From Escherichia coli (GTDB lineage Bacteria > Pseudomonadota > Gammaproteobacteria > Enterobacterales > Enterobacteriaceae), in NCBI RefSeq assembly GCF_030013205.1, contig NZ_CP122648.1: a DNA stretch of 64,000 nt, one strand, 5' to 3'. Position numbers: made by a program. Positions 25,601 to 28,009 of the stretch are shown piece by piece (position 1 is the stretch's first letter; each line of letters begins with the position of its first letter).

Positions 25601-28009
25601 TATGACAAAGAAAGTTTTTATTATCAGGGAACGACCCAACTAAACGATCGTTTTACCCTGAAAAGTCGGCTGTATCGCGATACCTTTGAAAATACGCTGA
25701 TGATGTACAACTCGCTGGCTGATTTGAAAAATAAAAAAGGCAGCTACAGCCATTATTCCGATTACAGCGACGGTGCCGGGTTACAACTGGCAGCCGATGT
25801 GCGTGAAAACGATCTGCTGTCGTTTGCCGTTAACTGGAAAGATGACGTACACCGGGAAAAGGTGCGCCGCACGCCGCTTACGATCGCTATGAAGATCGTA
25901 CCTGGTCGCTCGCCAGTGAATATCAATGGGCTGCTGCCGATAATGTCGATGTCGTGGCTGGAATCAGCTATGACTGGCGCGATAGCGTAGAAGCGAAAAA
26001 ACATGAGAAAGATGGCAGCATCACCCATTATGACGACAACAATCAGTCAGCTTTTAACTGGCAGGTGATGGGGAAATACCACTTTGCCAATGAAGATACG
26101 CTGGCGCTTTCGTACTATGACCGCACACGCTTTCCGACGCTGAAAGAACGCTATACCACGTCCAAACCTGCGTATAACCAGATAGCGATTGTTAACCCGC
26201 AGCTCAAACCGGAACGCGCGCGCGGGGTGGATTTAACCTGGAATGGTGCCTTCACGCACGACTGGGGGTTTGAGGTCAGCGTTTACTATAACCGGGTGAG
26301 TGATGCCATCCTCTCGCACAATATCGATGCCGATACCATTCAAAATCAGAACAGCGGCACGGTGGATTACAGCGGTCTGGATGCCGGTATTAAGGGGAAA
26401 ATCAGCAATATACTGGATGTAGGATTGAGCTACGCCCTGATCCACGCTGATGCCAAACGCAAAGACATCGGCAAGATAACCGATCTGCCAACGCAGACAA
26501 TGACCGCATGGATGACTCTCAAACCGTGGGAGCCGTTAAGCGTAACGCTGTCGGAAGAGGCGCGTTCCTCCAGCTACAGCAACAGTGACGGTTCACAAAA
26601 AGCCGCCGGTTTTGCGGTGACTCACATTCGAGCCGATTACACCTTAGGTCATGGCTTTAGCGTCAATGCGTCGCTCAATAACCTGTTTGATACCCAATAT
26701 GCCTACAGTGAAGGGTTTATTGAAGAAGGTCGCAATTTCTGGGCAGGTATCGAGTATACGTTCTGATGTGAAAGCGGATAGCGGCATCTGTATCGCTATC
26801 CGCCTTATGAAAATCTTATTCTCTTCGCAGGAGGCGGAATACGCCCAGAACGAGAATAGCTCCCACTACCGCCACCAGGAAGCTGTGCAGATTAAAACCA
26901 CTGATGGAGCCGCCAATGCCAAACATGGTCGCCAGCCAGCCGCCGACCACCGCACCGACTATCCCGAGAATACAGGTCAGGAAAAATCCACCACCATCAC
27001 GCCCCGGCATGATTAGCTTGGCGATAATGCCGGCTATCAGGCCAAAAATAATCCAGGCAATAATTCCCATGTTCAGGCCCTCGTTTCGATGAATCGGACG
27101 CAAGAAATGCTTACGTCAACGCTCTAAGTATAGGCAAGGGCGGAATCGATGCTGGGCGTATGTCGGCTGATTTAAGAACAACATGTAAAAAATATTCACG
27201 CATTTGTATTAAGTTTTGTTAACTGTGACCGATAAACCAAAGACAGTTTGTCAGTCAGGAGTTTTTCCGCGTGAGTCATTACCATGAGCAGTTCCTGAAA
27301 CAAAATCCGTTAGCCGTCCTGGGCGTGTTACGCGATTTGCACAAAGCCGCAATTCCTTTGCGTATCAGTTGGAATGGCGGGCAGCTGATCAGCAAAATAC
27401 TGGCAATAACCCCGGATAAACTGGTGCTGGATTTCGGCAGTCAAGCCGAAGATAACAACGCTGTGTTAAAGGCGCAGCACATTACCATTACCGCCGAAAC
27501 CCAGGGCGCTAAAGTCGAATTTACTGTTGAACAACTACAGCAGAGTGAATACTTGCAGCTTCCGGCATTTATTACCGTACCGCCTCCCACCTTGTGGTTT
27601 GTACAACGACGCCGATATTTCCGCATCTCCGCCCCACTCCATCCGCCTTATTTTTGCCAGACCAAACTGGCGGATAACAGTACGTTACGTTTCCGCCTGT
27701 ATGATTTGTCGTTAGGCGGTATGGGCGCATTACTGGAAACAGCAAAGCCTGCCGAATTACACGAAGGCATGCGCTTCGCTCAGATTGAAGTCAACATGGG
27801 GCAATGGGGTGTTTTTCACTTTGACGCCCAGTTAATCTCAATCAGCGAGCGCAAAGTGATTGATGGCAAGAATGAAACCATCACCACTCCCCGTCTGAGC
27901 TTCCGTTTTCTTAACGTCAGCCCGACGGTGGAGCGGCAATTACAGCGGATTATTTTCTCTCTCGAGCGGGAAGCCCGGGAGAAAGCGGACAAAGTGCGCG
28001 ACTGATTTA

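What the first reader, a model, noticed from the sequence alone, without database searches (positions are those of the whole stretch)
25846..25990. Frameshift splitting the island's TonB-dependent receptor
The receptor is encoded as two overlapping ORFs in different frames (24776..25990 and 25954..26766). The downstream frame is open back to 25846 and reads ...YDRYEDRTWSLASEYQWAAADNVDVVAGISYDWRDS, while the upstream frame reads ...WKDDVHREKVRRTPLTIAMK. The switch therefore lies within this interval, most plausibly a 1-bp indel near the gggaaaagg run at 25853..25861. Loss of the receptor would disable the whole uptake system, or it is a homopolymer sequencing error.
Basis: seen in the sequence. 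Interest (0 to 1): 0.5.

Follow-up and report, generated by a model that had tools for sequence, protein, structure and literature searches.

The report
One-base deletion inactivates TonB receptor
One A lost from a run of five A's splits an outer-membrane nutrient-receptor gene in this pig-pathogenic E. coli; the whole O139:H1 edema-disease clone inherits the same lesion and public annotation already flags it as a pseudogene, so it is a real but ordinary gene loss.

Summary
The last gene of a six-gene accessory uptake operon between treA and ymgE encodes a TonB-dependent receptor, and here it is split into two overlapping ORFs (24776/24797..25990 and 25954..26766).

Alignment with intact E. 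coli copies shows a single difference. The run at 25857-25860 is A4 where intact genes have A5. The product stops at 397 aa (355 native plus 42 aberrant) instead of 656 aa.

The deletion is real and inherited, not a homopolymer error:
- The exact A4 81-mer occurs in 13 complete swine genomes of one clone (Korea, France, Belgium, Netherlands).
- Three of those are PacBio assemblies corrected with Illumina reads.
- The exact truncated protein is on record in about 100 blocks of public assemblies.
- 1822 other genomes carry the exact A5 version.
- NCBI's PGAP pipeline already marks the gene "frameshifted".

The receptor has also been knocked out independently elsewhere: W370* in 21 genomes, and deletions in Shigella flexneri.

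One nanopore-only genome nested in the clone (ETEC4079) reads A5. That is either a reversion or a consensus error, and only reads can settle it.

There is no support for programmed frameshifting. This is a lineage-specific pseudogene of low novelty.

The parts
24797..26766 (+). Whole TonB-dependent receptor pseudogene (1970 nt here; 1971 nt and 656 codons when intact)
   Evidence: PGAP annotates the orthologous stretch as 'TonB-dependent receptor plug domain-containing protein, frameshifted' in K_EC180, W13-16, P15-25 and the Belgian and Dutch ETEC genomes. It is annotated as an intact 656-aa CDS in ETEC4079, EC556 and Ecol_316.
24797..25990 (+). N-terminal fragment ORF. It holds the signal peptide, a TonB-box-like DTLTVW, the Plug domain and about the first third of the barrel, then 42 out-of-frame residues and a TAG stop at 25988-25990. 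The product is 397 aa.
   Evidence: Pfam finds Plug at residues 39-139 of the repaired protein. The exact 397-aa product is in public collections as STL97536.1 and in Logan assemblies.
25857..25860 (+). A4 tract, the site of the 1-bp deletion (A5 in intact genes). The codons are R353 CGG, E354 GAA, K355 AAG, and the frame is lost after K355.
   Evidence: Alignment A1; pairwise comparisons; codon table.
25861..26766 (+). Remaining native coding sequence, now in the -1 frame (G356 to F656 of the intact protein). The ORF listing reports its ORF from GTG 25954. It has no signal peptide of its own.
   Evidence: The Pfam barrel domain spans residues 223-630 of the repaired protein.
20341..24771 (+). 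Rest of the operon, all intact: substrate-binding protein 20341-21363, FecCD-type permease 21363-22343, ATPase 22340-23098, SAM methyltransferase 23108-23920, ModD 23917-24771.
   Evidence: PGAP annotation of the identical sequence in ETEC4079 and K_EC180. NCBIfam scores ModD at 497.5 bits against a cutoff of 178.85.

Best explanation
This is a genuine, vertically inherited loss-of-function mutation. Replication slippage removed one A from an A5 run in codons 354-355 of a 656-codon TonB-dependent outer-membrane receptor gene. Translation leaves the native frame after Lys355, adds 42 unrelated residues and stops at TAG 25988-25990. The 397-aa product keeps the signal peptide, plug and roughly the first third of the barrel. 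It lacks the rest of the barrel and the C-terminal Phe, so it cannot form a functional receptor (inferred from general TBDR and outer-membrane-protein biology). The downstream ORF has no export signal and is a relic, not a gene. The deletion arose in the ancestor of the European/Korean branch of the swine O139:H1 ST1 edema-disease clone and has been passed on since. The outer-membrane step of this accessory uptake system, whose substrate is unknown, is therefore lost in that clone, while the periplasmic, inner-membrane and cytoplasmic components are still intact.
For: (1) The only difference from the intact ETEC4079 copy over the gene is A4 versus A5. (2) The exact A4 81-mer occurs in 13 of the 2139 complete genomes that carry the gene. 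All 13 are swine isolates of one clone. The exact A5 82-mer occurs in 1822. (3) Three A4 genomes come from PacBio plus Illumina-corrected assemblies made by two independent groups: K_EC180 (HGAP/Quiver/Pilon; PMC8071739) and W13-16 and P15-25 (PacBio and Illumina reads assembled with Unicycler; PMC8798679). (4) The exact 397-aa truncated protein is indexed in 101 blocks of public assemblies, mostly Logan contigs of 10-50 kb. SRR19716130, with 21 similar places, is identical to the window over 4.2 kb except at 26674. (5) Variant matrix: the Japanese sister lineage (EC556) and the outgroup CFSAN018748 are A5. Every other clone member is A4 except ETEC4079. The treA-stop subclade is nested inside the A4 group, so the deletion is older than that subclade. 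(6) PGAP calls the gene 'frameshifted' in all the A4 genomes inspected. (7) The intact gene was under purifying selection: 15 of the 21 differences between two alleles fall at third codon positions. The repaired protein has a complete Plug plus barrel architecture.
Against: No reads for the window's own genome could be inspected. Its closest relative, ETEC4079, which matches the window at every other site in 64 kb except 34278, reads A5 and is annotated intact. The Belgian and Dutch genomes, and probably the window's source, are nanopore-only R9.4.1 assemblies (PMC10151945), where homopolymer length is the typical residual error. The same A5-to-A4 change also appears in at least one visibly error-ridden assembly, GCA_949813075.1, which has several split neighbouring genes. 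So the site can be miscalled. Loss of function was not measured.
Confidence: 0.88

Rival explanations
1. Homopolymer sequencing or assembly error confined to this assembly: the organism really has A5 and an intact receptor.
For: ETEC4079, the nearest relative, reads A5. The collection the window most resembles is nanopore-only. A4 at this site also shows up in a low-quality assembly with many split genes.
Against: A4 is the state of 13 of the 14 complete genomes of the European/Korean branch, including three assemblies corrected with Illumina reads, and of about 100 blocks of public assemblies. The window shows no private indel elsewhere in the 64 kb compared with relatives. By phylogeny, A4 is the expected state for this genome.
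Confidence: 0.05
2. Reversible on/off switch (phase-variation-like): the A4/A5 tract toggles by slippage, and ETEC4079 is a natural revertant that re-expresses the receptor.
For: ETEC4079 carries the derived treA stop and so is nested in the A4 clade, yet it has A5 and an intact ORF. The A5-to-A4 change recurs in unrelated backgrounds: L030, L031 and a Shigella flexneri run.
Against: A tract of 4-5 bases is far shorter than the 7 or more typical of contingency loci (established knowledge). 13 of the 14 clone genomes are fixed for A4 across four countries. ETEC4079 is a nanopore-only consensus. Other lineages inactivate the gene irreversibly, through W370* and a 16-bp deletion. ETEC1748 appears to carry a second 1-bp deletion, which would indicate decay rather than switching, though that assembly is also nanopore-only.
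Confidence: 0.05
3. Translational rescue: ribosomes slip -1 on the A_AAG created by the deletion and make some full-length, wild-type receptor.
For: The deletion puts A_AAG in the correct phase (GA A_AAG G). A -1 slip of the Lys-tRNA would then read GGT next, which regenerates the exact wild-type sequence E-K-G. A_AAG is the most shift-prone tetramer in E. coli when a stimulator is present (PMC4066793).
Against: Without a stimulator, tetramers give about 0.15% frameshifting against a background of about 0.11%. The 90 nt downstream fold no better than shuffled sequence (z = 0.28). The frameshift is not conserved: intact A5 is the norm.
Confidence: 0.02

Closest known systems
PGAP-annotated pseudogene IGX36_RS14070 of E. 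coli K_EC180 (NZ_CP062203.1), and its equivalents in O139:H1 W13-16 and P15-25 and in the ETEC genomes
   Same: Same gene, same locus, same A4 deletion. It matches the window over 24700-26850 except for one SNP at 26674.
   Different: The window has C at 26674 (Leu instead of Val near the C-terminus), a state shared only with ETEC4079.
Intact orthologues WP_001550986.1 (EC556, Ecol_316) and WP_282842947.1 (ETEC4079): an uncharacterised 656-aa TonB-dependent receptor of the accessory operon between treA and ymgE
   Same: Identical sequence apart from the extra A (ETEC4079), or the extra A plus 1-5 SNPs. Same operon: substrate-binding protein, permease, ATPase, SAM methyltransferase, ModD, receptor.
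   Different: One uninterrupted ORF. The gene is present in 2139 of 5426 complete E. coli genomes.
Independent knock-outs of the same receptor: W370* (TGG to TAG, equivalent to window 25904) in 21 complete genomes, one of them labelled O4:H5, and Shigella flexneri copies with a 16-bp deletion
   Same: Same gene and the same outcome, a plug-bearing fragment plus an orphan 270-aa C-terminal ORF.
   Different: Different lesions and different lineages. This shows recurrent loss, not a shared event.
Characterised TonB-dependent receptors (heme receptors such as ShuA, BtuB, CirA, FepA, FecA)
   Same: Plug plus beta-barrel architecture. There is weak plug-region similarity to heme receptors in the PDB, with E-values around 1e-6.
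   Different: The protein scores far below every curated NCBIfam cutoff: heme 124 against 317, siderophore 122 against 224, B12 79 against 600. The substrate cannot be assigned.

Membership tests
TonB-dependent outer-membrane receptor (TBDR) | N-terminal Plug domain (PF07715) | tested here: met
   Pfam hit at residues 39-139, E = 7e-21, on the repaired protein. This part lies in the upstream ORF of the window.
TonB-dependent outer-membrane receptor (TBDR) | C-terminal beta-barrel domain (PF00593) in one polypeptide with the plug | tested here: not met
   The barrel domain (residues 223-630, E = 6e-33) is found only after repairing the frame. In the window it is cut at residue 355 and continues in another frame. 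The sequence is a pseudogene of a TBDR, not a functional member.
TonB-dependent outer-membrane receptor (TBDR) | Signal peptide, TonB box near the mature N-terminus, terminal aromatic residue | tested here: inconclusive
   Judged by eye only: MRLKKRYLCTALSLAFTQQAVA/AQ, then ESDTLTVW, and a C-terminal ...GIEYTF. No dedicated predictor was run.
Heme/hemoglobin, siderophore or vitamin B12 receptor subfamilies (NCBIfam TIGR01785, TIGR01783, TIGR01779) | Score at or above the curated cutoff | tested here: not met
   124.2 against 316.85; 122.2 against 223.5; 79 against 599.7.
Frameshift pseudogene (lineage-specific gene decay) | Intact orthologues exist, and the lesion is a simple indel relative to them | tested here: met
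   The exact A5 82-mer is in 1822 genomes. The single-base gap is shown.
Frameshift pseudogene (lineage-specific gene decay) | The lesion is shared by descent within a clade and confirmed by accurate sequencing | tested here: met
   13 complete genomes of one clone. The variant matrix supports shared descent. Three assemblies combine PacBio and Illumina reads. The exact truncated protein is in about 100 blocks of public assemblies.
Programmed -1 ribosomal frameshift site | Slippery motif in phase | tested here: met
   GA A_AAG G, with AAG as the zero-frame codon at 25859-25861.
Programmed -1 ribosomal frameshift site | Stimulatory downstream structure, and conservation of the two-frame arrangement among homologues | tested here: not met
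   Downstream fold z-score is 0.28. Homologues are single-frame.
Phase-variable contingency locus (simple-sequence repeat switch) | Long mutable homopolymer (typically 7 or more) with both lengths segregating among very close relatives | tested here: not met
   The tract is only 4-5 A. 13 of 14 genomes of the European/Korean branch are A4. The single A5 (ETEC4079) comes from a nanopore-only consensus.

The most novel reading that the evidence does not exclude
The A4/A5 tract behaves as a slow reversible switch. ETEC4079 would then be a true natural revertant that regained the receptor by re-inserting one A, which implies that selection for this uptake system sometimes returns in the pig host. 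The recurrence of the same deletion in unrelated backgrounds (two other E. coli backgrounds and a Shigella flexneri run) would mark the run as a mutational hotspot.
Probability: 0.06. Interest if true: 0.4.

Novelty: already known. Interest (0 to 1): 0.13.

Why it matters
On its own it matters little. It is one more lineage-specific pseudogene in a host-restricted pathogen clone. The same 64 kb also holds a treA nonsense mutation, a frameshifted hypothetical gene and a c-di-GMP phosphodiesterase gene split by IS2, which fits general gene decay in this clone. The result has two practical uses. First, the A4 allele is a clean marker for the European/Korean branch of the O139:H1 ST1 edema-disease clone. 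Second, the recurrent loss of this receptor, through at least three independent lesions in E. coli and Shigella, shows that the uncharacterised uptake operon between treA and ymgE is dispensable in several niches. The case also illustrates that a homopolymer frameshift in a nanopore-era assembly can be judged by comparison across the population, without access to the reads.

Tried and rejected
- **Fur box.** I searched the whole window for the 19-bp consensus with up to 3 mismatches and found none. Iron regulation could not be supported this way.
- **Rfam scan of the window.** There is no riboswitch or other RNA element near the operon. The only hits are STnc490 and C0299, both elsewhere.
- **Promoter and terminator scan of 19950-27300.** The counts do not differ from shuffled sequence.
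- **Downstream frameshift stimulator.** The 90 nt after the slip site fold no better than shuffles, so programmed frameshifting was rejected.
- **Assigning a substrate.** All NCBIfam hits are below their cutoffs. PDB sequence hits are weak and limited to the plug region.
- **Published name for the treA-ymgE island.** The literature search was swamped by noise and gave nothing usable.
- **Window as a copy of ETEC4079 with an artificial deletion.** I rejected this because the window also differs from ETEC4079 at 34278, and both window states (A4 and 34278A) are natural alleles of sibling strains.
- **A single recombination tract restoring ancestral states in ETEC4079.** I rejected this because the derived 26674C lies between the two sites that look reverted.

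Full report
**What is in the sequence.** The window is E. coli chromosome. Gene order is prfA-hemA ... dhaKLM-treA, then a six-gene accessory operon, then ymgE-ycgR-emtA-ldcA-cvrA-dadXA .... The operon encodes a substrate-binding protein, a FecCD-type permease, an ATPase, a SAM methyltransferase, ModD and a TonB-dependent receptor.

The downstream frame is open back to 25846, just after a TGA at 25843-25845. PGAP uses ATG 24797 as the start in all related genomes.

**Where the lesion is.** I aligned 25780-25960 with the orthologous stretch of three genomes in which the gene is a single 1971-nt CDS (ETEC4079, EC556, Ecol_316). The only difference is one missing A: GGGAAAAGG in the window against GGGAAAAAGG. 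Over the whole 2151-nt query, the window differs from ETEC4079 by that base alone.

The tract is at 25857-25860. Counting from ATG 24797, the codons are R353 CGG, E354 GAA and K355 AAG (AAA in the intact gene). After that come 42 out-of-frame residues and a TAG stop at 25988-25990, giving a 397-aa product.

Adding the A back gives a 656-aa protein with Pfam Plug (residues 39-139) and a TonB-dependent-receptor barrel (223-630). The truncated product therefore keeps the plug and only about a third of the barrel. It lacks the C-terminal ...EYTF. Non-function is inferred from general TBDR and outer-membrane-protein biology and was not tested here.

**Real mutation or sequencing error.**
- The gene is present in 2139 of 5426 complete E. 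coli genomes.
- An 81-mer carrying A4 is matched exactly in 13 of them. All 13 are swine isolates: K_EC180 (Korea), O139:H1 W13-16 and P15-25 (France), and ten ETEC genomes from Belgium and the Netherlands.
- The A5 version is matched exactly in 1822 genomes.
- K_EC180 was assembled from PacBio RS II reads and corrected with Illumina reads using Pilon (PMC8071739).
- W13-16 and P15-25 were assembled from PacBio and Illumina reads with Unicycler. They are typed O139:H1 ST1, the edema-disease clone (PMC8798679).
- The exact 397-aa truncated protein is on record in 101 blocks of the public assembly collection, mostly Logan contigs of 10-50 kb. One of these (SRR19716130, with 21 similar places) is identical to the window over 4.2 kb except at 26674.
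- PGAP marks the gene "frameshifted" in every A4 genome I opened.

A random homopolymer miscall cannot explain this pattern. The deletion is a real allele of the clone.

**Phylogenetic placement.** I built a variant matrix over window 1-36880 for 13 genomes of this lineage, the window and one outgroup. EC556 (Japan), which has five private SNPs, and the outgroup CFSAN018748 are A5. All the other genomes are A4 except ETEC4079.

Within the A4 set there are three groups:
- W13-16, P15-25, ETEC6333 and ETEC1701, which share 22645A.
- ETEC4068 and ETEC4075, which share a 120-bp deletion at 32282-32401 and 33678G.
- A group defined by a derived nonsense mutation in treA (19801 A to T, Lys497 to TAA). 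It contains the window, ETEC4079, ETEC4067, ETEC4070, ETEC4069, ETEC1748 and K_EC180.

The receptor deletion is therefore older than the treA stop.

**The ETEC4079 discrepancy.** The window matches ETEC4079 across all 64 kb except at two sites: the A-run and 34278 (window A, ETEC4079 G). The two share 26674C, which is unique to them.

ETEC4079 carries the treA stop, so it is nested inside the A4 clade, yet it reads A5 and is annotated intact. The Belgian and Dutch genomes come from a nanopore-only study (R9.4.1 flow cells, Bonito, Trycycler, Medaka; PMC10151945). That paper's supplement lists ETEC_4079 with a chromosome of 5,181,067 bp, the same length as NZ_CP122643.1.

The A5 in ETEC4079 is therefore either a true +1 reversion or a consensus error, and I cannot tell which without reads. 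Sites 26674 and 34278 show all four allele combinations among the window, ETEC4079, ETEC4067 and the remaining genomes. That pattern also fits one or two consensus errors or homoplasies. The window itself is not any record in the complete-genome collection. It is probably a sibling isolate from the same study, but that is an inference.

**Recurrent loss of the gene elsewhere.**
- The orphan 270-aa C-terminal ORF is common in public data.
- In one widespread allele the cause is a nonsense mutation, W370* (TGG to TAG at gene nt 1109, equivalent to window 25904). It lies only about 45 nt downstream of the A-run and is present in 21 complete genomes, one of them labelled O4:H5.
- Shigella flexneri copies carry a 16-bp deletion (nt 438-453) plus further 1-bp deletions. 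One is in the same A5 run (SRR8293489) and one is at nt 937.
- The A5-to-A4 change also occurs in two other E. coli sequence backgrounds that encode the identical 397-aa product but differ from the window at 34-40 sites in 4.2 kb (L030, L031).
- It also occurs in GCA_949813075.1, an assembly whose neighbouring genes are split as well, which suggests sequencing error there.

The run is therefore a modest hotspot for both real deletions and miscalls. The receptor is evidently dispensable in several lineages. When intact, it evolved under constraint: 15 of the 21 differences between two alleles are at third codon positions.

**Alternative mechanisms.** The deletion places an A_AAG tetramer in phase. 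A -1 slip there would regenerate the exact wild-type protein. However, published measurements give about 0.15% frameshifting for tetramers without a stimulator, against a background of about 0.11% (PMC4066793). The 90 nt downstream fold no better than shuffled sequence (z = 0.28). Programmed frameshifting is not supported.

A phase-variation switch is also unlikely. The tract is only 4-5 bases long and is fixed as A4 in 13 of the 14 genomes of the European/Korean branch.

**What the system is.**
- The receptor scores below every curated NCBIfam cutoff for heme, siderophore, B12 and copper receptors.
- It has only weak similarity to heme receptors in the PDB, limited to the plug region.
- ModD is a clear match at 497.5 bits.
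- The methyltransferase has weak, sub-cutoff resemblance to corrinoid-associated and Mg-protoporphyrin methyltransferases.
- I found no Fur box within 3 mismatches and no riboswitch upstream.

The substrate is unknown. "Iron ABC transporter" is PGAP's generic label. The five upstream genes are intact, and the receptor is the last gene of the cluster, so the lesion should remove only the outer-membrane step. This last point is inferred.

**Verdict.** The feature is a lineage-specific frameshift pseudogene that is already flagged in RefSeq annotation. It is ordinary and of low novelty. The only open point is whether ETEC4079's A5 is a reversion or a nanopore artefact.

Noticed in passing
window 18313-20010 (stop codon at 19801-19803): treA (periplasmic trehalase) has an internal TAA (AAA to TAA, codon 497). 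The mutation is shared by the window, ETEC4079, ETEC4067, ETEC4069, ETEC4070, ETEC1748 and K_EC180. treA is intact in W13-16, P15-25, ETEC6333, ETEC1701, ETEC4068, ETEC4075 and EC556. It serves as a subclade marker nested inside the receptor-deletion clade.
   Followed up: yes
window about 31954-33389: A hypothetical protein is frameshifted in the window and in every genome of this lineage examined, including EC556. Its C-terminal part reads like leucine-rich repeats (...LTSLPENLPPHLIEFYCSKNVLTALPKV...). It is intact (WP_001314632.1) in CFSAN018748 and Ecol_316. ETEC4068 and ETEC4075 additionally lack 120 bp at 32282-32401, inside its repetitive acidic region.
   Followed up: partly
window about 58489-61348: A cyclic-di-GMP phosphodiesterase gene (labelled pdeG in other genomes) is split by an IS2 insertion. 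The C-terminal part is at about 58489-59664, IS2 at about 59675-60903, and the N-terminal CSS-motif part at about 60995-61348. Together with the receptor, treA and the hypothetical gene, this makes four disrupted genes in 64 kb, which suggests general gene decay in this clone.
   Followed up: no
window 34278 (dadX) and 26674 (receptor): These two sites conflict. The window is 26674C/34278A, ETEC4079 is C/G, ETEC4067 and ETEC4070 are G/A, and all other genomes are G/G. All four combinations exist among near-identical genomes, most or all of them nanopore-only. The cause is homoplasy, patchy recombination or consensus errors.
   Followed up: partly
window 26562 (L017, ETEC1748): ETEC1748 has a second 1-bp deletion inside the already broken receptor gene, whose CDS is annotated as 1969 nt. 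This is either further decay or a nanopore error.
   Followed up: no
window 25904 equivalent (L023, L025; 21 complete genomes): An independent nonsense allele, W370* (TGG to TAG), of the same receptor occurs in another E. coli lineage; one of the 21 genomes is labelled O4:H5, and hosts include dogs and humans. Shigella flexneri copies carry a 16-bp deletion at gene nt 438-453.
   Followed up: yes
L013 35116-35927 (CFSAN018748): In this Danish swine strain the receptor is intact, but the SAM methyltransferase of the same operon is annotated as frameshifted. A different gene of the operon is broken in a different lineage.
   Followed up: no
window 37911-38502 and 43510-43588: An IS200C transposase gene lies next to an Rfam STnc490 match (38379-38502, minus strand, 141.8 bits). 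A C0299 sRNA match lies at 43510-43588 (minus strand).
   Followed up: no
search result: 8 of the 2142 matches to the receptor segment lie on records labelled as plasmids in complete E. coli assemblies. This is unexpected for a chromosomal treA-ymgE locus. I did not inspect them.
   Followed up: no
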